64,000 nucleotides of DNA from Nitrospinaceae bacterium (GTDB lineage Bacteria > UBA8248), in assembly GCA_018669005.1 (NCBI GenBank), contig JABJAL010000072.1, positions 231,877 to 295,876 on the forward strand, given 5' to 3'. A model generated the notes under the pieces. The model was not told the DNA's origin. It searched no databases and worked only from the letters and a program-made list of their open reading frames with translations. The translations under genes were made by a program, and so were the position numbers. Positions 34,323 through 56,932 of this stretch are shown here, in pieces; the stretch's first letter is position 1, and every line of letters begins with the position of its first letter.

Positions 34323-34338
34323 ATGTAGTGAATATATA

Positions 34339-34581
34339 ATGACTTCTGGTCGTGTGGATAGGGTGGTCATTCCAATTTACATCTTCAAAAATGGTAATGA
34401 TGAGCACCTCTGTCCAGAGTTGCTGCACGCAGATGTGACATCTAAAATGGTTCAGAATGCTACGGGATTTCATGTTGAAGTTTTAAATGTAATGCTCGAA
34501 ACGGTTGATCTATCATATGAAGAGCCTTTGGCTTTGGAATCGGTAGATCATTGCGGAGTCCATTTCGGTGAATTTTTTTAG
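34339..34581 (+). CDS. Hypothetical protein (80 aa)
   Basis: ORF directly downstream of the previous gene; no family. Confidence 0.2.
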   Translation: MTSGRVDRVVIPIYIFKNGNDEHLCPELLHADVTSKMVQNATGFHVEVLNVMLETVDLSYEEPLALESVDHCGVHFGEFF

Positions 34582-34604
34582 TCTTATTCCCTCTGGATTA
34601 GTGA

Positions 34605-36767: not shown

Positions 36768-37292
36768 ATGGCAGACACGCTCAACGCCCGCGAAATCAGG
36801 CTCCGTGATGCCGCCGCAGCAGGTTGCTATTCCAATGCCCTTCGCCGCGCCGCCCGCGCCGCTGGAAGTATGTACGACGATGCCCTGCGCCCCGCCGGGC
36901 TCCGCGGCACCCAGTTTACCCTCCTCGCCGCGCTCTCGAAAATGGGTGAGCCCACCTTGGGTGAGCCCATCCTGGGTGATACCCCCATGGGCGGTGGCAC
37001 CGCTAGTGGTACCCCAATGGGGCCGCTCGGCGAAGCCCTCGCCCTCGACCGCACCACCCTCACGCGAAACCTCGCTCCCCTTGAGCGCCGGGGCCTCATC
37101 GCCTCCGCACCCGGCCCCGACCGGCGCACCCGCATTGTCAGGCTCACCCCAGAGGGCGCCCAAGCCCTCGCCCAGGCGCTTCCCCTCTGGGAGGGGGCCC
37201 AATTAAAACTAGCCGCCGCCCTCGGGTTTGAAACCGCTGGCCGTATTCGCGCAGATCTGTCGAAAACACTCGCCGCTGCCCGTGCGGGCTGA
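36768..37292 (+). CDS. MarR family transcriptional regulator containing an in-frame pentapeptide tandem-repeat insert
   Basis: MarR wHTH (LRGTQFTLLAALSKMG ... LGEALALDRTTLTRNLAPLERRGLI...DRRTRIVRLTPEG). It is interrupted by GEPTL-GEPIL-GDTPM-GGGTA-SGTPM, encoded by 15-nt tandem repeats at 36945-37023. Confidence 0.6.
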   Translation: MADTLNAREIRLRDAAAAGCYSNALRRAARAAGSMYDDALRPAGLRGTQFTLLAALSKMGEPTLGEPILGDTPMGGGTASGTPMGPLGEALALDRTTLTRNLAPLERRGLIASAPGPDRRTRIVRLTPEGAQALAQALPLWEGAQLKLAAALGFETAGRIRADLSKTLAAARAG

Positions 37293-38193: not shown

Positions 38194-39441
38194 GTGGGGC
38201 GTCCAATCGGAATTGATCTTTTTGCTGGGGCAGGAGGCTTAAGCCTAGGTTTCGAGCAGGCGGGGTTTAAAATTGCCGCTGCTGTCGATATTGACCCAAT
38301 TCATTGTGCAGCACATGAGTACAATTTCCCCAATTGTAAAACTATTTGCAAAGATGTCGCTGAATTGACGGGAGAAGAAATTCGAAAAATTTCTGGTGTC
38401 AAAGAAAAAAAAATAGATGTAGTTTTCGGAGGAGCGCCTTGTCAGGGTTTTTCGCTGATTGGTAAAAGAGCATTAAACGACCCGCGTAATCGTCTCGTTA
38501 ATCATTTTGTTCGATTGGTACTTGAGCTAGCCCCTTCTTATTTTCTATTTGAGAATGTCAAAGGATTAACAATCGGCAAGCATCGCCAATTTCTCGAAGA
38601 AATAATTTCAACGTTCGAAAAAAATGGTTATTCGGTTGAGGGTAATTATCGTGTGTTAAATGCATCTAATTACGGAGTGCCGCAGAAGAGAGAACGGTTA
38701 TTTCTATTCGGGTGTAGAAAAAATCTTAAAATTCCTATATATCCAAAAAAATTGAGCGAAATTTCAATCTCCGATGCGTTGGCAGATTTGCCAGAAGTTG
38801 AAAAATTTACAGAACTGCTTGATAGGGATTGGGTGGAGACAATTCTTGGAAGTCCATCAAAATATGCTGAAAAATTACGAGAAGCTGAATTTGCTTCTTG
38901 TAATTATGGATACAGTCGAAAATATAATCCCAATCTACTAACATCAAGCGCAAGAACAACTCATACGCCACTTTCTCGAAAACGATTTGCCGAAACGCCA
39001 CACGGAAAAACAGAACCAGTTAGTAGATTTTTCAAATTAGATCCGCAGGGTGTTTGTAATACCTTGCGGGCTGGGACGGCAAGTGATCGGGGAGCTTTCA
39101 CTTCTCCAAGACCTATCCATCCCTTTACTCCTCGATGTATTACAGTTCGCGAGGCAGCCCGAATACACAGCTACCCTGATTGGTTTCGATTTCATGTCAC
39201 CAAGTGGCATGGGTTTAGGCAGATTGGAAATTCGGTCCCACCTCTTTTGGCCCAAGCGGTCGCTATGGAAATTTTGAGGGCTCTTGAAAAAAAACCTTCA
39301 AAGCCCAAAAAAATTTTAAGGTTAGGCGATTCATTGTTGCTTAATTTGTCAATGTCGCAAGCGGCTTATTATTATGGCGTGTCTCCAAATGTGATTCCAA
39401 AACGTACCAGATCGGCCCGTCCAAAGGTGATTTGTGCCTAA
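38194..39441 (+). CDS. DNA (cytosine-5)-methyltransferase
   Basis: Motif I (IDLFAGAGGLSLGF), motif IV PC (GGAPCQGFS), motif VI ENV (ENVKGL), motif VIII and a C-terminal target-recognition domain. GTG start with AGGAGAG RBS; GC ~40%. Confidence 0.8.
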   Translation: MGRPIGIDLFAGAGGLSLGFEQAGFKIAAAVDIDPIHCAAHEYNFPNCKTICKDVAELTGEEIRKISGVKEKKIDVVFGGAPCQGFSLIGKRALNDPRNRLVNHFVRLVLELAPSYFLFENVKGLTIGKHRQFLEEIISTFEKNGYSVEGNYRVLNASNYGVPQKRERLFLFGCRKNLKIPIYPKKLSEISISDALADLPEVEKFTELLDRDWVETILGSPSKYAEKLREAEFASCNYGYSRKYNPNLLTSSARTTHTPLSRKRFAETPHGKTEPVSRFFKLDPQGVCNTLRAGTASDRGAFTSPRPIHPFTPRCITVREAARIHSYPDWFRFHVTKWHGFRQIGNSVPPLLAQAVAMEILRALEKKPSKPKKILRLGDSLLLNLSMSQAAYYYGVSPNVIPKRTRSARPKVICA

Positions 39442-40234
39442 AAAGCGAACTGGTCTTTATGATGTGATAATAGAGCAAATTTTCAAGAATCATTTCACGG
39501 CGGGTATTTCTTCATTCGATTTTGATAGGGACGAAATTGAAAAAGTTGCAGAGAAAATTGAAGCAAACCTTCCAAAAAATGTAGGCGATGTGGTTTATTC
39601 CTTTCGTTACCGTAGGGCACTTCCTAAATCTATTCAAGATACTGCATCGAATGATAATGAATGGGTCATCGAAGGAGCAGATAGAGCCAAATATACATTT
39701 AAATTGGTGAAAATTAATCGAATTGTACCCAACCAAAATTTAATTGCTATAAAAATTCCAGATGCAACTCCAGAAATAATTTCATCTTATGCGCTGTCAG
39801 ATGAGCAAGCCCTGTTGGCAAAGGTCAGATACAATAGATTAGTAGATATATTTTTGGGGCTAACAACATATTCTTTGCAGAATCATCTGAGAACTACTGT
39901 TAAAAGAGTTCAAATCGAGATAGACGAAATTTATGTCGGCATAGATCGAGAAGGATGCCACTACATAATACCTATTCAAGCGAAGGGAGGAAAAGATCAA
40001 CTTTCAGTGGTTCAAACAAAACAGGATATATCTTGTTGTACCGATAAGTTTCCAAATTTAATTTGCCGAGCACTATCAAGTCAATTTATGACAGAAAATC
40101 TTATTGCTATTTTCGAATTGACTGTGCAGGATGATCAGATAAGAATTGTTGATGAAAAACATTATCGATTAGTCCCTTCGGAGCAAATATCTTCAGAAGA
40201 TATGAAAGCATACAGGTCACACACTTCAGGGTAA
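39434..40234 (+). CDS. Hypothetical protein, candidate type II restriction endonuclease partner of the C5-MTase
   Basis: Overlaps the MTase by 8 nt, shares its low GC, and has a possible PD-(D/E)xK-like element (VGIDREG...IPIQAKGG). No family otherwise recognised. Confidence 0.35.
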   Translation: MPKKRTGLYDVIIEQIFKNHFTAGISSFDFDRDEIEKVAEKIEANLPKNVGDVVYSFRYRRALPKSIQDTASNDNEWVIEGADRAKYTFKLVKINRIVPNQNLIAIKIPDATPEIISSYALSDEQALLAKVRYNRLVDIFLGLTTYSLQNHLRTTVKRVQIEIDEIYVGIDREGCHYIIPIQAKGGKDQLSVVQTKQDISCCTDKFPNLICRALSSQFMTENLIAIFELTVQDDQIRIVDEKHYRLVPSEQISSEDMKAYRSHTSG

Positions 40235-40260: not shown

Positions 40261-40330
40261 TCACTTCCCCCATATGACCAAGAACACCCTAACAACCGAA
40301 ATCATCTCCCCCCAGACAACGCGGGGCGAC
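40261..40330 (-). pseudogene. 3' remnant of a fourth EamA/DMT transporter paralog
   Basis: Positions 40261-40330 are ~75% identical to the 3' end of the DMT gene at 41315 (ttacttcccccatacgacgagaaacacc...cagacgacgcggg), but the frame is broken. Lies at the right edge of the low-GC R-M island. Confidence 0.4.
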
Positions 40331-40396
40331 TAAGAATTCATGAAGAATCAATAATTTTGAAAGAGCGCAGGACTCATTTAAAAGCCCGCCCCGTCT

Positions 40397-41215
40397 TCAG
40401 GCTTGGGCCAGAACGAAATGGCGCAGTTTCTCGATGGCGTCTTTTGAGGCCTCTGTGTCCGGCTCGGTGAGGATGAACATGTGGGGCTGGCCCTCGTATT
40501 TGTGGAGGTCGATCGAGCCGCCGGCTGCGCGATAGCGCTCGGCGAAGATATCGGCGCGGGTATGCTCGACATTGGCGTCCTCGGTGCCCTGGATGATTAT
40601 CATTGGCGGCATGTGGGTCGCCTCGCCGCGATCAAGGACCATAAAAGGGTTGCCGGTTTCCATGTCCTCATCCGTGGGAAAATAGGCCTTGGTGGCGGCT
40701 ATCAGCCGCTCATTGCCCACTTTTTGTGCCATCTGGTAGCGCGCCAGCGGATCGAGTATCGACCAGCACGCGATAAAAAAAGCAATGCTGGCATCCACAT
40801 CAGCCAGGGAGGGGTCTGGTGCCATGTAGCGCGCATCATCAGGCGTGAGCGCCACCAGCCCCATCTGATTCCCGCCGCTTGATGCGCCCATCGCGCCGAT
40901 GATGCTTGGCGCCACCCCGAGTGCGCTGGCGTTCGCTTTGAACCAGCGCACGCCGTAATTGATGTCAATCACCGGTGCCGGGAATTGCGTCTCGCCCGAT
41001 AAGCGAAAATCCAGCGCGAACACGCCGATGCCGTTTTTTGCGAAATCCTGATGGATGACCTCGTTGCTAAGACGGCTGCCTCTGCCCCAGGCCCCGCCAT
41101 GCGCATCTATCACGAATGGGGCTGGTCCCTCGGGATGAGGCCGATACAGCCGGGCTTTCAACTCGGTGCCCTCGATAGTCCGGTAGGGAATGTCCTCGAC
41201 GACCGGGTTTGTCAC
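40397..41215 (-). CDS. Alpha/beta hydrolase (esterase/lipase, hydrolase fold-3-like)
   Basis: HGGAW oxyanion motif and a GxSxG-like nucleophile elbow (GAMGASSGG). Confidence 0.6.
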   Translation of the reverse strand: MTNPVVEDIPYRTIEGTELKARLYRPHPEGPAPFVIDAHGGAWGRGSRLSNEVIHQDFAKNGIGVFALDFRLSGETQFPAPVIDINYGVRWFKANASALGVAPSIIGAMGASSGGNQMGLVALTPDDARYMAPDPSLADVDASIAFFIACWSILDPLARYQMAQKVGNERLIAATKAYFPTDEDMETGNPFMVLDRGEATHMPPMIIIQGTEDANVEHTRADIFAERYRAAGGSIDLHKYEGQPHMFILTEPDTEASKDAIEKLRHFVLAQA

Positions 41216-41314: not shown

Positions 41315-42193
41315 TTACTTCCCCCATACGACGAGAAACACCCCGGCAACAGATAGCAGCCCGCCCCAGACGACGCGGGAGGTGATCTGTTCGAGTTGTC
41401 GGTAGAAAAGCCAGGAGGTGAAAATCATCAAGAGGACCGAGATGCGGGTGACGGGCACCACCTGCACGAGATCCCCGTGCTGGACGGCAGTCCAGAAGAA
41501 CAGGGCGGCCAGGGCGTTGAACACCGCCCCCACCACAATAAAGAGAACGGCCTGCCGCCCAAAGGATTTGGGTATTCCCTCGCCGGTAAAGGGCATGATG
41601 GCGATCATCGTCACGACCGAAAAAGTGTTGGAAATGCTCATGCCGAGCGTGGCCGAATCGATCCAGCCATATCCGTATTTGCGCAGCAGGTGGGAGAGCC
41701 CTTGTAGAAATGCCGCCACCACCGGGATGAGGTAGTAAGACATGGGGATTTTCTTGAGCTCAATTTCTCCTTTGTTGACCAGGAGAATTGAGCCAATCAT
41801 GATCGCCGCCGTTCCCGCGCCGATGGCCATGTTCAGATTCTCCCCCAGAAGGGCGATGGCCAGCCCCGTTGACCAGATGAGGCTTGTTTGAAGAATGATC
41901 GCCGTCCGGGCGAGGCCAAGCTCTTTCATTGATAAAAATTGAAGGTAGCGCCCGCCCACACCGTTTATGATTCCGATGCCCACGAACCAGGCAACCCCCT
42001 GAAGGGGCCAATGCTCCACCTGGCCTGAATAGAAATAATAACCCCAGATGAGGACCAGCGAGATTGAGCCCGAGATCAGAGCTGTTGTGTTTGCGCCGAA
42101 ATGGAGCAGTACGCTTCGGTAGAGTGTTCGCGCTATCGAGATGTTGACCGCGGATAAAAGTGCCAACAGGCTGGGGTGTATTGAATCGAGCAA
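41315..42193 (-). CDS. EamA/DMT superfamily transporter, tandem paralog 1 (292 aa)
   Basis: 10-TM DMT profile; ~70% identical to the next two genes. Confidence 0.6.
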   Translation of the reverse strand: MLDSIHPSLLALLSAVNISIARTLYRSVLLHFGANTTALISGSISLVLIWGYYFYSGQVEHWPLQGVAWFVGIGIINGVGGRYLQFLSMKELGLARTAIILQTSLIWSTGLAIALLGENLNMAIGAGTAAIMIGSILLVNKGEIELKKIPMSYYLIPVVAAFLQGLSHLLRKYGYGWIDSATLGMSISNTFSVVTMIAIMPFTGEGIPKSFGRQAVLFIVVGAVFNALAALFFWTAVQHGDLVQVVPVTRISVLLMIFTSWLFYRQLEQITSRVVWGGLLSVAGVFLVVWGK

Positions 42194-42291
42194 ATCGCCA
42201 CCAGAGAGGATAGAAACTAAAAAACTATTATTGCATGGAACGAAAAATAGAGCGATGAGGGGAGTCTGAATTTCTTAATTGGCGGGCGGCT

Positions 42292-43170
42292 TTATTTTCC
42301 CCAAACGATGAGGAACACCCCGGCAACGGAGAGCACCCCCCCGTAAACGACGCGGGCCGTGACGCTTTCTTGTTTTCGGAAAAAAAGCCATGAAGTGAAA
42401 ATCATCAAGAGGACCGAGATTCTGGTGATGGGGACGACCTGCACGAGTTCTCCCCGCCTGACAGCCGTCCAGAAAACTATCGCGGACATAAAGTTGAACA
42501 GCGCCCCTCCCACGATGCAGAGTATGGGCCGCCGCTCCAAGGTTTTTGGGATGCGCTCGTTCGTGAACGGCATGATGGCGAGCATCGTCATGACCGAAAC
42601 GGTGTTGGAGATACTCAGGCCGAAGGTGGCCGAATCAATCCATGCGTAACCGTATTTACGTAGCAGGTGAGATAGCCCGAGAAAAAACGCCGCCGCCAGC
42701 GGGATAAGATAGTAGGTGAGGGGAATCTTCTTAGGCTCCGAGCCTCCCTTTTTGACCAGGAGAATGGAGCCGATCATGATTGCGGCTGTTCCCGCGCCGA
42801 TAGCCAGGCTCAAGCGCTCGCCCAAAAGAATGATGGCCAGCCCCGTGGACCAGATGATGCTTGTCTGCATCAGGATCGATGTCCGGGCAAGGCCGATTTC
42901 TTTTATCGAATAAAAGCTGAGATAGCGACCGCCCAGACCACCCAATATCCCGACAACCATGAACAAGGCAATCCCCTGAAGGGGGTAGTTGTCCACCGTT
43001 CCCGTGTACAAATAAAAGCTCCATACGCAGACAAGCGTAATCGAGCCCGAGGCCAGAGCCGTCGTGCCGGCACCTAGGCGGAGCATCGCGCCCCGGTAGA
43101 GGGTCCGCGCCATAGAGATGTTGAACGCGGAGATCAGCGCCAACATGTTGGGATGAATGGTATCGAGCAA
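42292..43170 (-). CDS. EamA/DMT superfamily transporter, tandem paralog 2 (292 aa)
   Basis: Same length and conserved blocks as paralogs 1 and 3; a ~99-bp conserved spacer separates the copies. Confidence 0.6.
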   Translation of the reverse strand: MLDTIHPNMLALISAFNISMARTLYRGAMLRLGAGTTALASGSITLVCVWSFYLYTGTVDNYPLQGIALFMVVGILGGLGGRYLSFYSIKEIGLARTSILMQTSIIWSTGLAIILLGERLSLAIGAGTAAIMIGSILLVKKGGSEPKKIPLTYYLIPLAAAFFLGLSHLLRKYGYAWIDSATFGLSISNTVSVMTMLAIMPFTNERIPKTLERRPILCIVGGALFNFMSAIVFWTAVRRGELVQVVPITRISVLLMIFTSWLFFRKQESVTARVVYGGVLSVAGVFLIVWGK

Positions 43171-43269
43171 ATCGCCACCAGAGAGGAGAGAAACTAAAGA
43201 TCTATTATTGCATGTAACGAAAAACAGATCGATGAAGACTGTCAGGGTTTCTAGAAATGGCGGGCGGTT

Positions 43270-44148
43270 TTATTTTCCCCAAACGACGAGAAACACCCCG
43301 GCAACGGAGAGTACCCCCCCGTAAACGACGCGGGCGGTGACTCTTTCTTGTTTTCGAAAAAACAGCCAGGAAGTGAAAATCATCATGAGGACCGAGATCC
43401 GGGTGATGGGAACGACCTGCACGATTTCTCCTCGTTGTACGGCTGTCCAAAAGAACAGGGCGGACAAGGCGTTGAACACCGCCCCCGCCACAATGAAGAA
43501 AATAGGGCGCCACCCCCAAGTTTTGGGGATGCCCTCATTCGTGAAAGGCAAGATGGCGATCATCGTCATGACCGAAACGGTGTTGGAGATGCTCAGGCCG
43601 AAGGTGGCCGAATCAATCCAGTTGTAGCCGTATTTGCGGAGCAGGTGAGATAGGCCCAGCAAAAAAGCCGCCACCACGGGAATGAAGTAGTAGGAGAAAG
43701 GTACTTCTTTAAGCTCTGAGCCCCCTTTGTAGACCAGGAGAATGGAGCCAATCATGATTGCGGCTGTTCCCGCGCCGATAGTCAGGTTCACCTGCTCGCC
43801 CAGGAGGACGATGGCCAGCCCCGTGGACCAGATAATGCTCGTTTGCATCAGAACCGAGGTTCGGGCGAGGCCGAGCTCTTTCATCGAGAAAAAATTAAGG
43901 TAGCGCCCGCCCACGCCTCCCAGCATTCCGACGATGACGAACCAGGCAATCCCTTGAAGGGGCCAGCTGTCCACCGTGCCGGTATAAAAATAATAGCTCC
44001 AGATAAGGCCCAGCGAAATTATCCCTGAGGCCAGTGCCGTCGTGCCGGCACCGAGGCGAAGCAGGACGCTTCGATAGAACGTTCGCGCTATCGCGATGTT
44101 GAGCGCGGCTAACAGTGCCAACGCTGTGGGATGAAATGAATCGAGCAA
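43270..44148 (-). CDS. EamA/DMT superfamily transporter, tandem paralog 3 (292 aa)
   Basis: As above. Confidence 0.6.
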   Translation of the reverse strand: MLDSFHPTALALLAALNIAIARTFYRSVLLRLGAGTTALASGIISLGLIWSYYFYTGTVDSWPLQGIAWFVIVGMLGGVGGRYLNFFSMKELGLARTSVLMQTSIIWSTGLAIVLLGEQVNLTIGAGTAAIMIGSILLVYKGGSELKEVPFSYYFIPVVAAFLLGLSHLLRKYGYNWIDSATFGLSISNTVSVMTMIAILPFTNEGIPKTWGWRPIFFIVAGAVFNALSALFFWTAVQRGEIVQVVPITRISVLMMIFTSWLFFRKQERVTARVVYGGVLSVAGVFLVVWGK

Positions 44149-44401
44149 ATTGCCACCAGGGAATAAGGCAAGAAAAGAACGCGACGTCTATTATCGCACG
44201 GAATGCACTATAGGGCGATGGGCGCGCCGCACTTCCAGCTCTTTAAAAGGGCTCTACAGTTGCCTCCACCCGGTTTTCTTTACCCCGGATATGTTGGATA
44301 ATTCCCGCCTCTGTACACAATCGGACCTCCGGGCAGGGTTTGGGCCCGGTGCAATTTCCTTTTGTCTGATTCACGTCTTATTTTTAACAAGGAGAGTCAT
44401 A

Positions 44402-45415
44402 GTGATTATCGATCCCCACGCACACATTTCGCCCGAAAGTTTTATTGATGACGTTCGCAAAAAACGCTTCGGCAAGTCAGTAACGATCAGAAAGGGCAAG
44501 CCCTGGGAGTTTCTCGTCACGCGCACGAAGATCCTCGGCAAGGAGCGGGTCCACGTAAACCCGCTGCCCAAAGAAACCTACGATGTGAGTCTTCGCCTGA
44601 AGGGCATGAAGAAGCAGAACGTCGATATGCAGATTCTCTCGGTCGTGCCGCCGATGACCTACTACGCGCTCGACAAGGGGCTGAACAAAGAGCTCTCGGC
44701 CTCGCTCAACGAATCCTTGCTTAAAATCGTGGACGAGAATCCGGATAAATTCCGCTGCATGGCGCAGATTCCTCTCCAGGATCCCAAGGCGGCGGCCAAG
44801 GAGCTAGAGCGCGCGGTCAAAAAGGGCCACCTCGGCTGCCAGATTGGCTCGAACGTCGCGGGAACCAACCTTGATGACAAAAAGCTCGACCCCGTATGGC
44901 GTATGGCGCAAAAACTCGATGTGCCCATTTTCATCCATCCCACAGACGTGATGGGCGTGAATGATCGCCTCAAGGACTATTACTTGCGCAACTTCATCGG
45001 CAACCCGCTCGACACCACCATCGCGGCGGCCTGTCTCATCTTCGGCGGGGTGTTTGACCGCTTCCCGAAGGTTAAATTTCTGCTCTCCCACGTGGGTGGC
45101 TTCACCCCCTGGATCAGAGGCCGCTGGCAGCACGGCTACGGCGAGCGCCAGGAGCCCAAGGTCAACAAGGCCAAGGCACCCGAGAACTACTTCAAAAAGT
45201 TCTACTACGACACGATCATTCACAATGCCGATTCATTTGAGTTTGCCGTTAAGTCGCTGGGCGTGAACCGCATCCTCTACGGGACGGATTACCCGTTCGA
45301 CATGGGCAACCTGAGCCGGGCCGAGAAGATTCCGGGCCTCTCGCGTTTTTCGAAAAAAGATCAGCAGAAAATGCTCGTGGGCAACGTGAAGAAGCTCTAT
45401 AAACTAAAAGTGTGA
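44402..45415 (+). CDS. Amidohydrolase-2 family (PF04909-like; ACMSD/LigW-type metal-dependent hydrolase/decarboxylase)
   Basis: IDPHAHI N-terminal His pair, HVGG and GTDYP metal-site motifs. GTG start at 44402 with AAGGAGAG RBS; the ORF-track N-terminal extension is rejected. Confidence 0.65.
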   Translation: MIIDPHAHISPESFIDDVRKKRFGKSVTIRKGKPWEFLVTRTKILGKERVHVNPLPKETYDVSLRLKGMKKQNVDMQILSVVPPMTYYALDKGLNKELSASLNESLLKIVDENPDKFRCMAQIPLQDPKAAAKELERAVKKGHLGCQIGSNVAGTNLDDKKLDPVWRMAQKLDVPIFIHPTDVMGVNDRLKDYYLRNFIGNPLDTTIAAACLIFGGVFDRFPKVKFLLSHVGGFTPWIRGRWQHGYGERQEPKVNKAKAPENYFKKFYYDTIIHNADSFEFAVKSLGVNRILYGTDYPFDMGNLSRAEKIPGLSRFSKKDQQKMLVGNVKKLYKLKV

Positions 45416-45452
45416 ATTTTAAGACCAAAACGAACATTAAAAGGAGAATTAG

Positions 45453-46460
45453 ATGGCCATTGATCCACATACACATATTCTGCCGATGGGGTTTCTGGAC
45501 GACCTGCGCAAGGGCCGCCTCGGCAAGGCTGTAAGCATCGAGAAGGATGGCGATAATGAGTTCATGGCGTTCGAGGGCACCATCTTCGGCAAGGAGCGCC
45601 GCTGGCATAACAATCTCAAGCCGCCTTATTACGATGTGGACATCCGCCTCGGGGCGATGAAGAACATGGGGGTCGAGCGCCAGGTGCTCTCGGTCTCGCC
45701 CTTCATGACGCTCTATGCCCTCGACGCCGGGTTGAATAAAGAGCTTTCGGCCTCGATCAACGACGGTTTGACCGAGTTGGCAAACAAGTACCCCGATCAG
45801 CTCTCCTGCATGGCGCAGGTGCCGCTCCAGGATCCCGATGCCGCGGTGGCCGAGCTCGACCGGGCTGTGAAAAATGGCCACATCGGCGTGCAGATCGCAG
45901 CCAACGTCGCGGGGGAGAATCTCGACGCGCCAGAGCTCGATGTTTTCTGGGCCAAAGCGGTCGCGCTCGATATTCCGATTTTCATCCATCCCCAAGGCCA
46001 GGCGGCGGCCCCTGAGCGGCTCGGCGATTACTACATGAGAAACTTCATCGGCAACCCGCTCGACACGACCATTGCTGTCTCGTGCCTAATCTTCGGCGGG
46101 GTGCTCGACCGTTTCCCGGACATTAAATTCTATCTCTCCCACGTGGGTGGCTTCGTTCCCTGGATCAGAGGCCGCTGGCAGCACGGCTACGGCGAGCGCG
46201 ATGAGCCCAAGGTAAACGGCGCCAAAGATCCCGAACAGTATTTCGGCAAATTTTACTACGACACGATTATTCATAATGCCGATGCCTTCGTGTATGCCGT
46301 TGAAACGCTGGGAGCCGACCGCATTCTCTACGGGACGGACTATCCGGCCGATATGGGCTACCACCAGCCGGCCAAGGATATTCCTGGCCTCTCGCGGTTG
46401 TCAGCCGAGGATCAGGAGAAAATCCTCATCGGCAACGCGAAGAAGCTCTATAAGCTCTAG
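45453..46460 (+). CDS. Amidohydrolase-2 family protein, tandem paralog
   Basis: ~65% identical to the preceding gene (IDPHTHI, HVGGF.PWIRGRWQHGYGER, GTDYP). Confidence 0.65.
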   Translation: MAIDPHTHILPMGFLDDLRKGRLGKAVSIEKDGDNEFMAFEGTIFGKERRWHNNLKPPYYDVDIRLGAMKNMGVERQVLSVSPFMTLYALDAGLNKELSASINDGLTELANKYPDQLSCMAQVPLQDPDAAVAELDRAVKNGHIGVQIAANVAGENLDAPELDVFWAKAVALDIPIFIHPQGQAAAPERLGDYYMRNFIGNPLDTTIAVSCLIFGGVLDRFPDIKFYLSHVGGFVPWIRGRWQHGYGERDEPKVNGAKDPEQYFGKFYYDTIIHNADAFVYAVETLGADRILYGTDYPADMGYHQPAKDIPGLSRLSAEDQEKILIGNAKKLYKL

Positions 46461-46571
46461 CTCGCAATTTGGCGAAATAGCCCCGGTGGACAGCCGGGCC
46501 GGGGCTATGCAAGATCGGAGAATCAACGGAATTTTTTGAACTGCCATTTTCTCTTTTTGGGGGGAAGTCGC

Positions 46572-46856
46572 ATGGAGCCCAGGTACAAGGTAGGCGATGA
46601 GGTAGTTGTGCAGAACCGCTTTCCGCCCGGCCATATCCGCACCCCTGAGTTTGTCCGGGGCAAGGCGGGCCGCATCGCTCGTTATTTTGGCAAATTTCGT
46701 AATCCCGAAAAGCTGGCCTATGGCAAAGATGGTCTGCCGCTCTGCCCGCTCTATTGGGTCGAGTTCATGGTTAACGATGTGTGGGCCAATAAGCCAGGTA
46801 AGCAGCAGGACAAGATAGTGATTGAAATTTACGAACACTGGCTCGACCCGGCCTAG
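46572..46856 (+). CDS. Nitrile hydratase beta-subunit C-terminal-half homolog (SCNase alpha-like), ~94 aa
   Basis: YKVGDEVVV...GHIRTPEFVRGKAGRI...LYWVEF...DVW...IVIEIYEHWLD matches the C-terminal domain of NHase beta. GGGGGGAAG RBS. Confidence 0.5.
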   Translation: MEPRYKVGDEVVVQNRFPPGHIRTPEFVRGKAGRIARYFGKFRNPEKLAYGKDGLPLCPLYWVEFMVNDVWANKPGKQQDKIVIEIYEHWLDPA

Positions 46857-46901
46857 CGGGTTAGGGCCTTGGCGAAAACCGAAACCGATTCGAGGTGAGC
46901 C

Positions 46902-47627
46902 ATGGTAACGACGAACGATCCTAATTATTACAATTCGCACAAAGGTGGTGGCCACGATCACGGCAACGGCCATGATCACGGTCACACCCACGATGACACG
47001 CCGGTTGAGCGCGTCGAGCACGATCTCGACTATTTTCAGGTGCGCATCCTCGCGCTGGCCGATATTTTGAAAGAAAAAGGGCTGCTCACCACCGACGAAA
47101 TGCGCCGCGCTGTCGAGGACATCTACAGCAAGACGCCTGCCATCGGCTCGCGCGTCGTCGCAAAAGCCTGGGTGGACCCGGCCTTTAAAGAGCGCCTCTT
47201 AGAAGACGCTGCCTCGGCCTGCCACGAGATCGGCATCAGCACCGGGACGATTAACCACCTCGTCGCGCTCGAGAACACCGATAAAGTGCATTACATGGTG
47301 GTGTGCACCCTGTGCTCATGCTACCCGCGCCCGCTGCTGGGCCAGCCGCCCACCTGGTACAAGAGCTTTCCCTACCGCTCCAAAGCCGTTTCCGACCCCA
47401 GAGGGGCGCTGGCGGATCTCGGCTACACCGCGCCCGAGGATATTGAACTGCGCGTCGTGGATTCGACAGCCGACTGCCGCTATCTGATCATTCCGCGCCG
47501 CCCGGCAGGCACCGAGGGCTGGAGCGAGGAGAAACTTGTTGCCCTCGTCGTGCGCGATTCGATGATCGGAGTTGGCGATGCGCTCTCTCCCGCCGAGTAC
47601 GAGGCCTCCGCCGCGCTGGCCGAGTAG
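46902..47627 (+). CDS. Nitrile hydratase alpha / thiocyanate hydrolase gamma-like subunit, cobalt type, with His-rich N-terminus
   Basis: Active-site VCTLCSCYPRPLLGQPP (Co-type C-T-L-C-S-C) and a downstream YKS.PYRS block. N-terminal HKGGGHDHGNGHDHGHTHDD. Confidence 0.65.
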   Translation: MVTTNDPNYYNSHKGGGHDHGNGHDHGHTHDDTPVERVEHDLDYFQVRILALADILKEKGLLTTDEMRRAVEDIYSKTPAIGSRVVAKAWVDPAFKERLLEDAASACHEIGISTGTINHLVALENTDKVHYMVVCTLCSCYPRPLLGQPPTWYKSFPYRSKAVSDPRGALADLGYTAPEDIELRVVDSTADCRYLIIPRRPAGTEGWSEEKLVALVVRDSMIGVGDALSPAEYEASAALAE

Positions 47628-47659: not shown

Positions 47660-47700
47660 CGGCGGGGAGGCGAGAGCTTCCCCGTCGTTTTTGTTTTACG
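47660..47700 (+). terminator. Bidirectional rho-independent terminator / repeated palindromic element
   Basis: CGGCGGGGAGGCGAGAGCTTCCCCGTCG hairpin followed by TTTTTGTTTT. A near-identical copy is at 54088-54127. Confidence 0.4.
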
Positions 47701-47711
47701 CGGGATTTTTT

Positions 47712-48170
47712 TTAAACGAACTCCCCGGCGTCCGCCCTCGCGCGCACGGTGCCGCCCACCACGATGGCGGCGCTGATCAGGATGAGATTTTTGATGATGT
47801 ACTGCCCTTCCAGCGTCAGGCCGAAAGGGAACTGGGTGAAGCAGACCTCGGGGAGAAGGATCAAGGGCAATACCGTTCCCGGCATCTGAAGAAACAGCAG
47901 AAAGAGGGCAAGGCGGATGAGTGGGCGGAACAGGAGTCCGGCCCCTATCGCCACCTCCCACCATCCCAGGATCGGGACAAATAGCGCGGGGGAGAACCAG
48001 TAGACTGTCCGGCTGACCAGCTCTTCGGCCGGACTTATGCCGAGGAGCTTGAGTGCGCCGAACCAGATGAAAATGACGGCAAGGGAAATCCTGAGCAGCA
48101 TCCTTCCGTACTTTTCCATCCATCCCGAAATTCGAAGGTCGATTCTTTCTAATTCCTGTGTCCATTCCAT
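47712..48170 (-). CDS. DUF417/DoxX-like small membrane protein
   Basis: 4 TM helices with the FGALKLL motif typical of YkgB/DUF417. Confidence 0.4.
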
Positions 48171-50326: not shown

Positions 50327-53300
50327 TCATGAACAACTACCCGAAGTGGTGGAAACCAGCGCGCGGAAGCTGGCGCCGCTATCCACTTTGAAGCCCGGCT
50401 CGAGCCGGATGCCGCCTGTCGCGCTTTTCATGTGGAAGGTCACCCGGCTGCCTCGGCCCACGTTGACCCCTTTTCCCGCGACGATGGTGTCCGTCGCGGT
50501 GATAGAAGAGGGTGCTGTGAAGGCGCGGTTTGAGAGAGCGAGGTTTTTGGGGGGGGCCACACAGACCGACCTCTCATTTCCCAGATTGCTAAGGCCGCCC
50601 GATGCGTCCACCGCCTGGACGGAATAGATGTAGCTCATTCCCACCAGCACCGCAGTGTCCACGAACTGCGTTCCCGTTTGGTCCGAGGCGACGAGCACCT
50701 TCTCGCACGTCGGGCAGGATTTTCTGTAAACATTGTAGGAAACTGCCTCGCTCACAGCTGTCCAGTCGACTGTTGCTTGGCCGTTCCCCTGACTGATAGG
50801 CACCGACACAGTAACGGTTTTCAAGCTGTTATTTCCGCTCTCATCAGTGCTCTGAACCGTGATCGTATAGATCCTTCCGTTTCCCCCGCCCGAGCGCTCA
50901 GCCCGAAGGTTCAGCGTCAGATCTCCCGTAATCTCCCAATCAGGGGCGGTATCTCCGTCACCCGTACCGTTGACCGGCTCGTTGCTTGTCACCGATATGA
51001 TCTTCGAGCTTGGGAAAAGAGAGACATTGTCTTCTGCATCAACCGTTACACTCACCGGCTTCATTTTATGGTCCGGAGGAAAGAGTACATTAGAATTCAC
51101 CGAAACGCTGTTTATGACAGGAGGCGCCGTGTCCTGCACGGTGACCGTGAAGGTTTTTTCGGAACTGTTGTTGTTGGCGTCCATCGCCGTAACCGTCACC
51201 GCTGTCGCCCCGAGAGGGAACGTCGAGCCAGAGACCGGGCTGGACGCGACAGAAACGCTCGCGTCGCAGGCATCGGTAGTGCCCGGAAGACTAAAGCTGA
51301 CAACCGCGCCGCTCGGGCCCGTCGCCTCGGCCACGACGTCGGCAGGCTGGGCGAGGGCTGGCGCCGTCGTATCCTGGACGGTCACCGTCGCAGAGCAGGA
51401 GTCAGAATCTCCCAGATCGTCCGTGACCGTCAGCGTCACCGAGGTATTCCCCAAGCTGTAGGGACCCGGGGGAACCTGGGACAGCGTTATCGGATCGCCG
51501 TCCGGGTCCGAGGAGCCCGCGTCGATATCTGCCGCGGCCACACCGCCTGCCCCGCACTCTGCGATTACTACCTGGCACGAAGCCAGCGGCGGGTTATTCG
51601 GGGGTGCGGGCGGAGCCAATTCGATCTTCGCTATAAAGGCATCATATGTGCCGCCACCGAACGTGGTCTGGAATGCACCATCTGTGGTTGGGTAAGATGA
51701 AGAAAAAGCTATTCCAGATACATAAATATTTTCCTGGGGGTCAATTGCAATAGCTCTGCAATAATTTCGGCCACCTCCCAAGAAAGTAGAGTAGGTAACA
51801 TCTGTCCCAGTGGCGTTTAATTCCAAAACAAAACAAAGATCGGTATCAATAAAATCTGACTGAAAAGCATCCGGAGTTGTTGGGAAATCTAAAGATTTTG
51901 TACGTCCTGCCAAGTATGTTAATCCGGAAGAGTTAATTGCAATCGCCGATCCATCATCTAAATACGACCCTCCCAAATAAGTCGAAAAAAGAAGACCTGT
52001 GCCAGAGGCATTTAGTTTCGTTACGAATGCGTCCCAATCGCCACCCAATGACCTCTGGTAAGCCGCTTCCGTTGTCGGAAAATCTGTTGAGTCTGTTTGC
52101 CCCGCCACGGTTGCATTACCCGACAGATCGACAACTATACCTCTGCCAAGCTCTGTTCCACTTCCTCCCAAAAATGTTGAGTAAACAAGTGCAGTTCCTG
52201 ATGAATTCAGCTTACTTACAAATACGTCGTAATTTGAGCCACTGCCAAGGAGTGATGCCTGAAAAACACCAGGAGTAATTGGGAACTCCGCAGAATACGT
52301 TCCCCCCGTGACGAATGCGTTGCCTGAAATATCAACAGCCAAACCATATGCGGCATCGTTCTCGCTTCCACCCAAAAGTGTTGAATATAGAAGTGTCTCC
52401 CCCGTTGAATTTATCTTAAAAACGAAAGCATCGGTTTGATATCCACCAAAAACTGTCTGGACCGCCCCTGAGGTTGTAGGAAATAGAGATACGGGATCTC
52501 CCGAATAGTCCCGCCCCCATGTACTCCCAGCCACATAAGCGTTACCTGATAAGTCAAGGGCAATCGCAGTTCCAGCATCTGCCCCTCCCCCTCCCACCAA
52601 AGTCGAATATATTAAATTCGATCCATCCGAATTCAATTTACTTACAAAAACGTCGTATTCGCCAGCATTTACTTCGCTGAAAGCTCCTGATGTCACGGGA
52701 AAATCAACTGACCGGGTACTGCCCGTCAAATATGCATTCCCAGTCGAGTCGACAGCGATTGAGTTGGCATTGTCAATTCCACTTCCACCAAGATAGGTCG
52801 AATAGATTAGAGCAGTTCCCGAATCGTTTAGCTTGGCCACAAAAATGTCACTGCTCGATCCACTACCTGAAATCGAAGGTTGATAAGTTCCCGTCGAAAT
52901 GGGGAAATCCGTTGAATTTGTGTATCCGACAATTAATACGTTCCCCAAAGAATCAACTGCCATGTCTACGCCTATATCATCGCTGGCGCCCCCTAAGTAG
53001 GTCGAATATATCAAGACAGGATCGATTACGAGGGGTTTGGACTTATCGTAGGAGGCTACCTGGAAGCTCACTTCGTTTTGGGCGCCTAGGATAAACTTTC
53101 CGGAGATAGATTTTCTCTCGCCATTAATTTGCTGATAAATCACCGGCGCCTTTTGGACCACCTCGCCGCCCGGGGTGGAGAGAATTAGATCTCTTGCCGA
53201 ATTTAAAGAAATCTTCTTTGCGCCTTTAAATTTAAGCCGAATCCGCTCGGGGTCGGCGCCGGGTGAGACGATGAAGTCGAATTCGAGTTTTCTCTGGTTT

Positions 53301-53794: not shown

Positions 53795-54087
53795 GAGGAA
53801 GCCTCTTTCAATGAGAAAAATTGACTTCAAATACCTCAGGGTCATATCAAATTGTAATGGCCTAAGAGATTCGCCGGGCTTGAAGGATGTTATTATTTAA
53901 TGATATCGATGGCCCGTATTAGATATTCTTAATATGGGAATTCTTCTCCTCTTTATCTAGGATCAAAATCGAGTAAAGTGATTTTGGTTACAAAAAAAAG
54001 TGACCCAAATCACACTTTAGATAGCGGGAGTTTTTCGGCGGGGTTCGGCACTACAATTTTCGAACTGGCGATCCAAGGGCCCTACTG

Positions 54088-54127
54088 CGGCGGGGCGGCG
54101 AGAGCTTCCCCGCCGGTTAAATTTTTT
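54088..54127 (+). repeat. Second copy of palindromic terminator-like element (CGGCGGGGCGGCGAGAGCTTCCCCGCCGG + T-tract)
   Basis: About 90% identical to the element at 47660-47700; lies immediately 3' of the MFS gene at 54126. Confidence 0.35.
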
Positions 54128-56746: not shown

Positions 56747-56932
56747 GGTTGCCGGGCGCAGAGGCTGAGTTTCGAATCATGGCGAGCCTTTGTTTTACGG
56801 GACAGATTGCCAGCGCCCATGGGGAATGTGAATGCAATAAACCATATGAGATACTTGCCGCACGGAAGATAGCACAGGCCCCCGGTGGGTGTCAGGAAGA
56901 CGCGGTGGTTTTTGGATGGGAGTGATTCGCAA

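What the first reader, a model, noticed from the sequence alone, without database searches (positions are those of the whole stretch)
41315..47627. Paralog-rich accessory cluster: three tandem DMT transporters, two tandem amidohydrolase-2 genes and the NHase-like pair
Three 292-aa EamA/DMT genes (~70% identity) sit head-to-tail on the minus strand, separated by conserved ~99-bp spacers. They are followed on the plus strand by two tandem PF04909-type amidohydrolases (~65% identical) and then by the NHase-like genes. A fourth DMT copy survives only as a 3' remnant (40261-40330), and an extra amidohydrolase-2 C-terminus survives at 9804-9944. This points to repeated duplication and decay of a transporter/hydrolase cassette, possibly a catabolic island for an amide/nitrile or aromatic-acid substrate.
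Basis: seen in the sequence. Interest (0 to 1): 0.65.

Follow-up and report, generated by a model that had tools for sequence, protein, structure and literature searches.

The report
Transporter gene array beside nitrile operon
A marine nitrite-oxidising bacterium (Nitrospinaceae) carries a conserved four-gene operon, made of two ACMSD-like enzymes and an unusual cobalt nitrile hydratase that lacks half of its beta subunit, and next to it this strain has built a fast-changing array of three transporter genes.

Summary
Three 292-aa EamA/DMT genes (70-77% identical) lie head to tail, each behind a conserved promoter-like box. Two ACMSD-like PF04909 genes (63% identical) and a nitrile hydratase (NHase) pair follow on the other strand. 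A 3' stub of a fourth DMT copy exists. The claimed amidohydrolase remnant at 9804-9944 has no tool support.

The locus is not one duplicating transporter/hydrolase cassette. A1-A2-betaC-alpha is an old operon under strong purifying selection. It sits in the same chromosomal slot in many Nitrospinota, including a complete genome. Only the DMT flank changes: relatives carry 0, 1, 2, or 2 plus a pseudogene, against 3 plus a stub here.

The NHase has an intact Co-type alpha subunit (VCTLCSC) but only the C-terminal half of beta. No beta-N gene and no activator were found nearby. That layout is absent from the six organisations listed in a 2020 review. One sister lineage lacks the NHase and carries a NIT4-like nitrilase at the same locus, which supports a nitrile substrate.

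The substrate is unknown. I rate this moderately interesting: a new variant of known kinds.

The parts
36768..37292 (+). MarR-like regulator gene. It also neighbours the DMT array in the related strain L097 and is a candidate regulator of the locus.
   Evidence: Weak Pfam MarR_2/MarR/HTH_27 matches. It is syntenic with the MarR gene next to the array in L097/L098 and L018. Its role is inferred only.
38194..40234 (+). Low-GC insertion made of a C-5 cytosine DNA methyltransferase (38194-39441) and an unassigned 266-aa protein (39434-40234). It sits next to the DMT stub.
   Evidence: PF00145 match, E = 2.8e-71. GC is 0.42 and 0.36 against 0.55-0.61 for the neighbouring genes. It is absent from the syntenic locus L097.
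40270..40338 (-). Decayed 3' stub of a fourth DMT copy, of the D1 type.
   Evidence: tblastn with D1 residues 271-290 gives 60% identity, E = 0.006. The DNA aligns with the 3' ends of D1-D3 and of the L097 copies. It shares the VVW residue with D1 only.
40397..41215 (-). Alpha/beta-hydrolase esterase of 272 aa, downstream of D1 on the same strand. It is specific to this strain.
   Evidence: Pfam BD-FAE (E = 6.9e-25) and Abhydrolase_3. NCBIfam gives hormone-sensitive-lipase-like matches below cutoff. No homolog was found in any related locus.
41315..42193 (-). DMT paralog D1 (EamA, 292 aa, TTG start).
   Evidence: About 10 hydrophobic segments. Orthologs at 84% in L097 and 78% in L099.
42194..42291 (-). 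Spacer between D2 and D1. It holds the promoter-like box TTCCATGCAATAATAG (42225-42240; extended -10 TGCAATAAT at 42227-42235), the leader and the Shine-Dalgarno-like CTGGTGGC.
42292..43170 (-). DMT paralog D2 (EamA, 292 aa, TTG start).
   Evidence: Ortholog P0096 at 76% in another organism.
43171..43269 (-). Spacer between D3 and D2, with the box TTACATGCAATAATAG (43202-43217; extended -10 at 43204-43212).
43270..44148 (-). DMT paralog D3 (EamA, 292 aa, TTG start). It is transcribed divergently from A1.
   Evidence: Ortholog at 89% in L097.
44149..44401 (.). Divergent control region. It holds the D3 box TTCCGTGCGATAATAG (44188-44203, minus strand). On the plus strand it holds a GATAAT box (44297-44302), a GC hairpin followed by a T-rich run (44329-44349) and the A1 Shine-Dalgarno sequence (44389-44396).
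   Evidence: No Rfam family matches and no conserved RNA structure was found.
44402..45415 (+). A1, an ACMSD-like PF04909 metal-dependent enzyme of 337 aa with a GTG start.
   Evidence: Pfam E = 3.7e-32. Match to human ACMSD (PDB 4ign) E = 4e-51. The HxH, His, His and Asp ligands and the GR Arg are present. Ortholog dN/dS is 0.04-0.13.
45453..46460 (+). A2, the paralog of A1 (335 aa, 63% identical). It is always found directly after A1 in relatives.
   Evidence: Ortholog dN/dS is 0.10-0.22.
46572..46856 (+). NHase beta subunit reduced to its C-terminal SH3-like domain (94 aa). It keeps the GHxR arginine.
   Evidence: PF02211 E = 2.3e-20. It aligns to residues 129-219 of the P. putida Co-NHase beta subunit. 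It matches NCBIfam nitrile_beta positions 136-226 only. dN/dS is 0.05-0.12.
46902..47627 (+). Co-type NHase alpha subunit (241 aa) with an intact VCTLCSC metal site and a His/Asp-rich N-terminal tail.
   Evidence: PF02979 E = 3e-75. Matches to PDB Co-NHase alpha subunits at E = 1e-57 to 1e-68. The motif is conserved in all relatives. dN/dS is 0.06-0.18.
47660..47687 (+). Intrinsic-terminator-like hairpin that ends the A1-A2-betaC-alpha operon.
   Evidence: Stem of 12 pairs, 9 of them G-C, followed by TTTTTGTTTT.

Best explanation
Two things of different age sit back to back.

(1) An old enzyme operon. A1-A2-betaC-alpha is vertically inherited in Nitrospinota. It encodes two ACMSD-like metal-dependent decarboxylase/hydrolase paralogs, which probably work as a pair. 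It also encodes a cobalt NHase made only of the alpha subunit and the C-terminal half of beta. It has no beta-N gene and no activator gene, and the alpha subunit carries a His-rich tail. The enzyme most likely hydrates the cyano group of an imported nitrile-bearing organic acid (aromatic, heteroaromatic or amino-acid-like). A1/A2 then act on the carboxylated or amide product, so the cell gains nitrogen and/or removes a toxic compound.

(2) A lineage-specific transporter flank. A Nitrospinota-specific EamA/DMT transporter has been amplified by unequal crossing-over into a tandem array with a period of 977-978 bp. Each unit carries its own extended -10 promoter, a short leader and a TTG start. 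The array gains and loses copies. This strain has three intact copies under purifying selection and a stub. The stub was truncated when an esterase gene arrived, and a foreign methyltransferase cassette inserted beside it. The transporters most likely move the substrate or product of the operon.

Shown: gene families, paralogy, conservation, selection, copy-number variation and promoter-box conservation. Inferred: the promoter function of the box, enzyme activity, substrate class, pairing of A1 with A2, and the direction of transport.
For: The four-gene module:
- It is present, in the same order, in L011, L012, L017, L018, L021-L024, L097, L098, L102, L105 and L116. Alpha identity runs from 66 to 95%.
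- It sits in the same chromosomal slot in these relatives.
- The A1 and A2 ortholog groups predate these lineages.
- dN/dS is 0.04-0.22 for all four genes.

The NHase:
- No beta-N was found within 10 kb in any module-bearing locus. More distant relatives (L006, L008, L013) have beta-N, beta-C and alpha as three genes.
- In the characterised three-subunit ScNHase, AnhE (beta-C) plus AnhA (alpha) alone keep about 4% activity, and cobalt enters AnhA without an activator (PMC7329996).

The nitrile theme:
- The lineage L099/L104 lacks the NHase. It has a nitrilase that matches plant NIT4 at E = 9e-112 (roughly 55-60% identical by eye over the printed alignment), next to its single DMT gene and opposite A1-A2.
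- NIT4 enzymes convert 3-cyanoalanine to Asp plus NH4+ or to Asn (PMC8567248).
- A beta-N-less NHase in L025 is followed by an isochorismatase-family hydrolase. I know this family to include amidases, but I did not check that here.
- L018, L019 and L105 have a gentisate/5-aminosalicylate-dioxygenase-like bicupin directly after alpha.

The DMT array:
- Three orthologous clades exist.
- Paralog dN/dS is about 0.2 and dS is 0.58-0.78.
- Copy number across strains is 0, 1, 2, 2 plus a pseudogene, or 3 plus a stub, and the gene order differs in L103.
- The box ATTCCGTGCGATAAT, or its AATAAT variant, lies upstream of every intact copy in every strain examined (degenerate before L103b). It occurs exactly three times in the window, against 0.33 expected by chance.

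A different transporter sits next to the module in other lineages: an MFS gene in L011, L018, L021-L024 and L105, and another EamA gene in L017.
Against: - No substrate can be named, and nothing here is experimental.
- Beta-N carries betaArg52/56, whose mutation abolishes activity in canonical NHases (PMC7193024). A beta-N-less enzyme might be weak, might need a partner encoded elsewhere in the genome, or might do different chemistry.
- No canonical amidase is in the operon. ACMSD-family enzymes are known as decarboxylases, hydratases and lactonases, not as amidases (my own knowledge).
- The position aligned to ACMSD substrate residue Arg47 is Gly in A2 in the printed alignment and, by my reading of the raw sequences, in A1 as well. 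The enzymes are therefore not ACMSD itself.
- The NHase-to-nitrilase replacement is effectively one evolutionary event, because L099 and L104 are near-identical.
- Most characterised EamA proteins are exporters (my own knowledge), so the direction of transport is open.
- Only 16 clade-fixed, mostly conservative differences separate the three DMT clades. Specialisation cannot be told apart from a dosage effect.
Confidence: 0.55

Rival explanations
1. The DMT array is an efflux or detoxification device, not an uptake system. The amplified EamA genes, each with its own promoter, would export the amide or acid product of the operon, or a toxic analogue of it.
For: Each copy keeps its own extended -10 box, which fits selection for high dosage. 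Only 16 conservative clade-specific differences exist, so there is little sign of new specificities. The characterised EamA members I know of (EamA, RhtA, YddG) are exporters.
Against: In other lineages the module is flanked by MFS proteins. Their best NCBIfam matches are lactate, oxalate:formate and aromatic-acid:H+ transporter families, which fit carboxylate uptake or exchange. In L099, L104 and L101 the DMT genes lie next to catabolic enzymes.
Confidence: 0.3
2. The NHase pair is a crippled relic, because its beta subunit is truncated, and it plays no part in nitrile metabolism. The conserved function would lie only in A1-A2, acting as decarboxylases of a hydroxy- or amino-aromatic or heteroaromatic acid.
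For: Beta-N, which carries the essential Arg, is missing (PMC7193024). AnhE+AnhA of ScNHase keeps only about 4% activity (PMC7329996). L099/L104 keep A1-A2 without the NHase. A1-like genes occur singly in other contexts, next to CMD-family, TPP-dependent or molybdenum-hydroxylase genes.
Against: betaC and alpha are under strong purifying selection (dN/dS 0.05-0.18). The VCTLCSC motif is intact across lineages down to 66% alpha identity and 42-52% betaC identity, including in a closed genome. Beta-N-less pairs also occur in other lineages, L010 and L025, the latter assigned to Syntrophobacterales. The lineage that lost the NHase gained a nitrilase.
Confidence: 0.15
3. The whole cluster is a horizontally acquired catabolic island.
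For: A low-GC methyltransferase cassette and a strain-specific esterase lie inside the locus. Accessory genes vary between lineages: MBL hydrolase, bicupin, nitrilase operon and DMT copies.
Against: The core module has host-like GC (0.55-0.61). It is syntenic in the same slot in Nitrospinota whose A1 is only 58-77% identical, including a complete chromosome. The DMT family itself was found only among Nitrospinota-labelled or unlabelled metagenome proteins.
Confidence: 0.1
4. The tandem DMT copies are an assembly artefact, that is, an expanded or collapsed repeat.
For: Two contigs, L003 and L005, end inside the array, so assemblers do struggle there.
Against: The copies differ by 19-25% at the DNA level, which is far above the level that confuses assemblers. 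At least three independent assemblies span all three copies with 100% identical proteins, including a 214-kb contig. Each copy has its own orthologs in other organisms.
Confidence: 0.02

Closest known systems
Three-subunit cobalt NHases: Streptomyces canus ScNHase AnhD/AnhE/AnhA (PMC7329996) and toyocamycin NHase ToyJKL (my own knowledge)
   Same: Both have a Co-type alpha subunit with VCTLCSC, a separate small beta-C (AnhE-like) protein encoded just upstream of alpha, no activator gene, and a His/Asp-rich alpha N-terminus. The nearest non-Nitrospinota relatives of this betaC (56-57% identical) sit in exactly such three-gene operons.
   Different: The beta-N (AnhD-like) gene is missing here and in all module-bearing relatives. 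In ScNHase, AnhD is needed for full activity and for cobalt chaperoning. Here the pair is fused into an operon with two ACMSD-like genes.
Canonical two-subunit Co-type NHases (P. putida 3qxe, Pseudonocardia thermophila 1ire)
   Same: Alpha is about 50-55% identical by eye in the printed alignments, and the metal-binding motif is complete. The betaC domain aligns over residues 129-219, including the GHxR Arg.
   Different: There is no beta N-terminal half, which carries betaArg52/56 and the residues lining the substrate pocket. There is no activator downstream. NCBIfam scores fall just below (alpha, 244 against 250) or far below (beta, 73 against 152) the equivalog cutoffs. The layout is not among the six gene organisations in the 2020 review (PMC7193024).
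Thiocyanate hydrolase (SCNase alpha/beta/gamma)
   Same: It has a split beta subunit. SCNase alpha corresponds to beta-C and SCNase gamma to NHase alpha (PDB 2dd4 matches).
   Different: The alpha subunit scores 188 bits against a cutoff of 291 for the SCNase gamma model, lower than its score for the NHase alpha model. The betaC match to SCNase alpha is only E = 0.08. The beta-N-like SCNase beta subunit is absent.
ACMSD and the ACMSD family of non-oxidative decarboxylases within PF04909 (gamma-resorcylate, 2,3-dihydroxybenzoate, 5-carboxyvanillate and isoorotate decarboxylases)
   Same: ACMSD is the best PDB match for both A1 and A2 (E = 1e-46 to 1e-51). They have the same length, the HxH/His/His/Asp residues and the GR Arg that reaches into the partner subunit.
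   Different: The position aligned to substrate-binding Arg47 is Gly, next to a 7-residue insertion. They occur as a fixed tandem pair next to an NHase, not in a kynurenine or nitrobenzoate pathway. No NCBIfam equivalog matches.
EamA/DMT 10-TMS transporters (EamA, RhtA, YddG)
   Same: They have two EamA domains, about 290 aa and about 10 hydrophobic segments.
   Different: They form a Nitrospinota-restricted subfamily with no characterised member. They are arranged as a tandem array in which every unit has its own promoter.
NIT4-type 3-cyanoalanine nitrilase/hydratase pathway (plants, Pseudomonas; PMC8567248)
   Same: A nitrile-converting enzyme is tied to nitrogen salvage or cyanide detoxification. 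A NIT4-like gene replaces the NHase at this very locus in the lineage L099/L104.
   Different: The window has no nitrilase. The chemistry here would stop at the amide unless A1/A2 or a housekeeping amidase continues it. 3-Cyanoalanine as substrate is only a lead.

Membership tests
DMT superfamily, EamA family (PF00892) | Two tandem EamA domains in a protein of about 280-300 aa | tested here: met
   All three ORFs match PF00892 with two stretches, at 57-65 bits against a cutoff of 28.
DMT superfamily, EamA family (PF00892) | Ten transmembrane segments (5 + 5) | tested here: met
   A crude Kyte-Doolittle scan gives about 10 hydrophobic segments at matching positions in D1-D3. No dedicated topology predictor was available.
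DMT superfamily, EamA family (PF00892) | Demonstrated transport of a metabolite | not testable with these tools
   No characterised homolog was found. The only names given by sources are generic.
ACMSD (EC 4.1.1.45) sensu stricto | Metal ligands HxH, His and Asp, plus the catalytic His | tested here: met
   DPHAH/DPHTH, IFIHP, LSHVGG and GTDYP are present in A1 and A2 and in their orthologs.
ACMSD (EC 4.1.1.45) sensu stricto | Both substrate-binding arginines (human Arg47 and Arg235*) | tested here: not met
   The Arg235* equivalent (WIRGRWQHGY) is present. The residue aligned to Arg47 is Gly in A2 in the printed alignment, next to a 7-residue insertion. I read the same Gly in A1 from its sequence. 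The alignment is to the R47A mutant chain 4ign. That position 47 is the substrate arginine is my own knowledge.
ACMSD (EC 4.1.1.45) sensu stricto | Pathway context (3-hydroxyanthranilate dioxygenase, aminomuconate semialdehyde dehydrogenase) | tested here: not met
   No such genes lie next to the module in the window or in relatives.
Amidohydrolase_2 (PF04909), ACMSD-like subgroup | A significant full-length match to PF04909, with ACMSD-family decarboxylases as the nearest solved structures | tested here: met
   Pfam 113 and 120 bits against a cutoff of 26. The PDB ranking starts with ACMSD and continues with gamma-resorcylate and 2,3-DHBA decarboxylases.
Cobalt-type nitrile hydratase (canonical alpha-beta enzyme) | Alpha subunit with the VCTLCSC cysteine-claw motif | tested here: met
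   VVCTLCSCYPRP is present and invariant in all relatives.
Cobalt-type nitrile hydratase (canonical alpha-beta enzyme) | Full-length beta subunit, including the N-terminal half with betaArg52/56 | tested here: not met
   The beta protein has 94 aa and covers only positions 136-226 of the 226-position model. No beta-N-like sequence occurs in the 64-kb window or within 10 kb in 15 or more related loci. The rest of the genome could not be searched.
Cobalt-type nitrile hydratase (canonical alpha-beta enzyme) | Activator or accessory protein gene in the cluster | tested here: not met
   No NCBIfam or Pfam accessory match was found for the flanking gene or for the small ORFs downstream of alpha.
Cobalt-type nitrile hydratase (canonical alpha-beta enzyme) | Nitrile-to-amide hydration activity | not testable with these tools
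   This needs an enzyme assay.
Three-subunit NHase (AnhDEA / ToyJKL type) | Separate beta-N and beta-C genes directly upstream of alpha | tested here: not met
   Beta-C is present and beta-N is absent. The gap between A2 and betaC is only 111 nt. Relatives L006, L008 and L013 do meet this feature.
Thiocyanate hydrolase | Gamma subunit reaching the TIGR03887 cutoff, plus alpha and beta subunits | tested here: not met
   188 bits against a cutoff of 291. The match to SCNase alpha is E = 0.08. No beta-N-like subunit is present.

The most novel reading that the evidence does not exclude
Nitrospinaceae, the main marine nitrite oxidisers, would carry as a core trait a natural two-piece cobalt NHase (alpha plus beta-C only, with no beta-N and no activator). 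It would be catalytically competent because something else takes over the role of beta-N. The candidates are the conserved DEMRR motif in alpha or docking of the co-encoded ACMSD-like A1/A2 heteromer. Together with A1/A2 it would form a previously undescribed pathway that lets these chemolithoautotrophs use a nitrile-bearing dissolved organic compound as a nitrogen source, alongside urea and cyanate.
Probability: 0.2. Interest if true: 0.7.

Novelty: new variant of a known kind. Interest (0 to 1): 0.5.

Why it matters
Nitrospinaceae carry out much of the nitrite oxidation in the ocean. They are known to meet their nitrogen needs partly from organic nitrogen such as urea and cyanate (my own knowledge). 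A conserved and strongly selected operon built around an NHase would point to another class of organic nitrogen or toxin that they process.

For enzymology, an NHase that naturally lacks the beta N-terminal half tests which parts of the enzyme are truly needed. That half holds an arginine considered essential.

The DMT array is a clear small-scale example of gene birth and death in which each duplicated unit carries its own promoter. It also shows that copy number at this locus differs between closely related ocean populations.

Tried and rejected
- Riboswitch or structured RNA in the DMT spacers or the A1 leader. Rfam gave nothing at gathering thresholds for the whole window. In permissive mode it gave only a chance-level sRNA hit. 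The spacers fold no better than shuffled sequences, with z-scores of 0.0, -1.5 and +0.5. The alignment of eight A1 leaders shows no covarying structure, only a 5-pair helix that could cover the Shine-Dalgarno sequence.
- Sigma-70 consensus scan. It found no promoter in the spacers, because the -35 element is weak. I read the extended -10 element from the conserved box instead.
- Amidohydrolase remnant at 9804-9944. No similarity to A1/A2 and no Pfam hit.
- A hidden beta-N gene. None was found in the window. The only weak hit (E = 0.008) lies inside the alpha gene and reflects a shared DE-x-RR-x-x-E motif, not a fusion.
- NHase accessory protein among the small ORFs near alpha. None found.
- Thiocyanate hydrolase reading. 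Scores are below those for NHase.
- Specialisation of the three DMT clades. Only 16 conservative clade-fixed differences exist, so the test is inconclusive.
- Literature search for NHase in Nitrospina, or for NHase together with PF04909 or ACMSD. Nothing relevant turned up in the searchable library.
- A 7-deazapurine (preQ0) substrate idea. No preQ1 or other riboswitch and no queuosine genes were seen nearby, so I dropped it for lack of support.

Full report
**What is in the sequence**

- Three 292-aa genes lie on the minus strand at 41315-42193 (D1), 42292-43170 (D2) and 43270-44148 (D3).
- All three are two-domain EamA/DMT proteins with about ten hydrophobic segments.
- They are 70, 75 and 77% identical in protein and 75-81% in DNA.
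- On the plus strand follow two PF04909 genes: A1 at 44402-45415 and A2 at 45453-46460, which are 63% identical.
- Next come a 94-aa NHase_beta_C protein (46572-46856), a 241-aa NHase alpha subunit (46902-47627) and a strong terminator (47660-47687).
- A 272-aa alpha/beta-hydrolase esterase (40397-41215) lies downstream of D1.

The two claimed remnants fare differently.
- The 3' stub of a fourth DMT gene is real. It reads VVWGEMISVVRVFLVIWGK-stop at about 40270-40338 on the minus strand. It aligns with the ends of D1-D3 and shares a Trp with D1 only.
- The 'amidohydrolase C-terminus' at 9804-9944 has no detectable similarity to A1/A2 or to any Pfam family.

The window comes from a Nitrospinaceae MAG (source names). 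The same locus, with 100% identical proteins, is present in at least five independent assemblies, so it is not an artefact.

**The enzyme operon is old and conserved**

Related loci came from a genome-collection scan with alpha, a metagenome scan with A1 and exact-protein look-ups.
- They show A1-A2-betaC-alpha in the same order in many Nitrospinota: L011, L012, L017, L018, L021-L024, L097, L098, L102, L105 and L116. Alpha identity falls as low as 66% and A1 identity as low as 58-77%.
- The module always sits in the same slot. On one side are EVE, ApbA, ScpB, ScpA, CoA-transferase, PfkB and CycH-Ig. On the other side are two MFS genes and another EamA gene.
- This holds for the window, for L097 and for the closed 2.93-Mb genome L116.
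- A1 and A2 orthologs form separate groups, so the duplication predates these lineages.
- All four genes are under strong purifying selection. dN/dS is 0.04-0.13 for A1, 0.10-0.22 for A2, 0.06-0.18 for alpha and 0.05-0.12 for betaC.

The tandem amidohydrolases are therefore a fixed functional pair, not recent duplicates on the way to decay. The operon is core, not an island.

**What the enzymes look like**

A1 and A2:
- Both are closest to ACMSD among solved structures (E = 1e-46 to 1e-51). Gamma-resorcylate, 2,3-dihydroxybenzoate and 5-carboxyvanillate decarboxylases follow.
- Both keep the HxH, His, His and Asp residues.
- Both keep the GR arginine that, in ACMSD, reaches into the partner subunit. 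That role is my own knowledge.
- The position aligned to ACMSD substrate residue Arg47 is Gly, next to an insertion. They are therefore ACMSD-like but not ACMSD.

The NHase:
- Alpha is a Co-type subunit with an intact VCTLCSC motif. It is about 50-55% identical, by eye in the printed alignments, to crystallised Co-NHase alpha subunits.
- It has a His/Asp-rich N-terminal tail. Its split-beta relatives share this tail.
- The beta protein covers only the C-terminal SH3-like half: residues 129-219 of P. putida beta, or model positions 136-226 of 226. It keeps the GHxR arginine.
- No beta-N-like sequence exists in the window or within 10 kb of any module-bearing locus.
- No accessory protein gene is present.
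- Relatives of betaC at 56-57% identity (L006, L008, L013) sit in beta-N, beta-C, alpha three-gene operons. This is the AnhD-AnhE-AnhA layout of the characterised Streptomyces canus enzyme.
- In that enzyme, AnhE+AnhA without AnhD keep about 4% activity, AnhA alone has none, and cobalt enters AnhA without an activator (PMC7329996).
- A 2020 review lists six NHase gene organisations. None is 'beta-C plus alpha only'. The review also stresses that betaArg56, which lies in beta-N, is essential (PMC7193024).
- The beta-N-less form also occurs in L010, L015/L016 and L025, the last assigned to Syntrophobacterales.

Conservation and selection argue that this is a working two-piece variant and not a relic. 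Activity remains unproven.

**Evidence about function from variable neighbours**

- In the lineage L099/L104, A1-A2 are present but the NHase is absent. The divergent operon there reads DMT, a further PF04909 gene, a nitrilase, a beta-propeller and a TPP enzyme.
- That nitrilase matches plant NIT4 at E = 9e-112 and is roughly 55-60% identical by eye over the printed alignment.
- NIT4 enzymes turn 3-cyanoalanine into Asp plus ammonium, or into Asn (PMC8567248).
- A1 of L099/L104 nests inside the NHase-bearing clade. This looks like replacement of one nitrile-converting enzyme by another, although it is effectively a single event.
- L018, L019 and L105 carry a gentisate/5-aminosalicylate-1,2-dioxygenase-like bicupin directly after alpha. 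L011, L018 and L105 carry an MBL-fold hydrolase before A1.
- L021-L024 and L116 carry an extra PF04909 gene and MFS carboxylate-type transporters.
- L025 has an isochorismatase-family hydrolase after alpha.

Taken together these contexts point to a small nitrile-bearing organic acid, either aromatic/heteroaromatic or amino-acid-like. They do not identify it.

**The transporter array**

- D-type DMT proteins were found only in Nitrospinota-labelled or unlabelled metagenome sequences.
- They fall into three orthologous clades: D1-type, D2-type and D3-type. These clades are older than the split between this strain and L097.
- Paralog dS is 0.58-0.78, against about 0.43-0.76 for orthologous genes of the two strains.
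- Paralog dN/dS is about 0.2.
- Copy number varies:
  - none next to the module in L011, L017, L018, L021-L024, L105 and L116;
  - one in L099 and L104;
  - two in L097;
  - two plus a copy with two frameshifts in L103, where the order of the types also differs;
  - three plus a stub here.
- The repeat period is 977-978 bp.
- The spacers are more conserved than synonymous sites: 91% identity in the 57 nt before each start, against 58-66% at third codon positions.
- Every intact copy in every strain has ATTCCGTGCGATAAT, or the AATAAT variant, about 35-45 nt upstream of a conserved TTG start. The box is degenerate in front of the second copy of L103. I read it as an extended -10 promoter, TGnGATAAT or TGnAATAAT.
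- The box occurs exactly three times in the window, against 0.33 expected by chance.
- The spacers show no significant RNA structure and no Rfam match.

Each duplicated unit is thus a promoter plus a gene. This is typical of amplification by unequal crossing-over. Only 16 conservative substitutions are fixed between the clades, so dosage and specialisation cannot be separated.

The stub lies beyond a strain-specific esterase and next to a low-GC cassette (GC 0.36-0.42) made of a C-5 methyltransferase and an unknown gene. That cassette is absent from L097. The simplest reading is that a terminal D1-type copy was truncated when the esterase arrived, and that foreign DNA later inserted beside it.

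**Verdict**

Duplication and decay apply to the DMT flank only. The amidohydrolase pair and the NHase form an ancient, conserved operon rather than an accessory cassette.

The most notable feature is the beta-N-less, activator-less cobalt NHase, which is permanently coupled to two ACMSD-like genes in a key group of marine nitrifiers. I rate it a new variant of known kinds and of moderate interest. The substrate and the activity remain to be shown.

Noticed in passing
window 47091-47117 (alpha residues about 64-72); same position in L001-L025, L097-L116: The alpha subunit carries a DEMRRAVED motif. It resembles the beta-N motif DE(L/F)R(R/F)xIE, which (from my own recollection of the P. thermophila beta sequence) holds the essential betaArg52/56. 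All 24 beta-N-less alpha subunits keep the RR pair, whereas canonical alpha subunits have AALDLLIE at this position. This could compensate for the missing beta-N.
   Followed up: partly
window 44297-44401 (+): The A1 leader has a conserved GATAAT box, a GC hairpin (44329-44349) followed by a T-rich run, and a short element complementary to the Shine-Dalgarno sequence. Similar hairpin-plus-T-run leaders occur in L097, L099 and L018. No Rfam family matches and no covariation was seen. This could be a simple attenuator.
   Followed up: partly
window 38194-40234 (+): A low-GC (0.36-0.42) two-gene cassette holds a C-5 cytosine DNA methyltransferase and an overlapping 266-aa protein with no family match. 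The second protein is possibly the cognate restriction enzyme. The cassette is inserted between the 159-aa/MarR genes and the DMT stub and is absent from L097.
   Followed up: partly
L099 10971-16187 and L104 2-5870: A sister lineage has no NHase. Instead it has an operon reading DMT, PF04909 (311 aa), a NIT4-like nitrilase (E = 9e-112 to plant NIT4), a YVTN beta-propeller and a TPP enzyme, opposite A1-A2.
   Followed up: partly
L103 4950-5828 (-): The third DMT copy in this related strain carries two frameshifts and is a pseudogene. The order of the D1-type and D3-type copies relative to A1 is reversed compared with the window.
   Followed up: yes
L018 10745-11893; L019 2745-3839; L105 5550-6695: A bicupin resembling gentisate/5-aminosalicylate 1,2-dioxygenase lies directly downstream of alpha in three lineages. 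It is fragmented in L105. The window has no such gene.
   Followed up: partly
window 47712-48170 (-): A 152-aa DoxX/DUF417-like membrane protein lies convergent with alpha. It is present in this strain but absent from the same position in L097.
   Followed up: no
window 30000-36000: The syntenic core genes EVE, ApbA, ScpB, ScpA and PfkB lie in a stretch with GC 0.43-0.51, against 0.55-0.58 for most of the window. I have no explanation for this.
   Followed up: no
window 50327-53845 (-) and about 54100-57800: A 1172-aa DUF7948/SBBP/HYR beta-propeller protein, two tandem MFS transporter genes and a fifth, distant EamA gene (about 27% identical to D1) lie downstream. The MFS-MFS-EamA trio is conserved with the module in relatives.
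   Followed up: partly
L101 8556-10882: More distant members of the same DMT subfamily (45% and 57% identical to D3) also occur as a tandem pair. They lie next to creatinase/M24, cyclase, BKACE, TPP-enzyme and TctABC genes. Tandem duplication therefore recurs in this transporter family.
   Followed up: no
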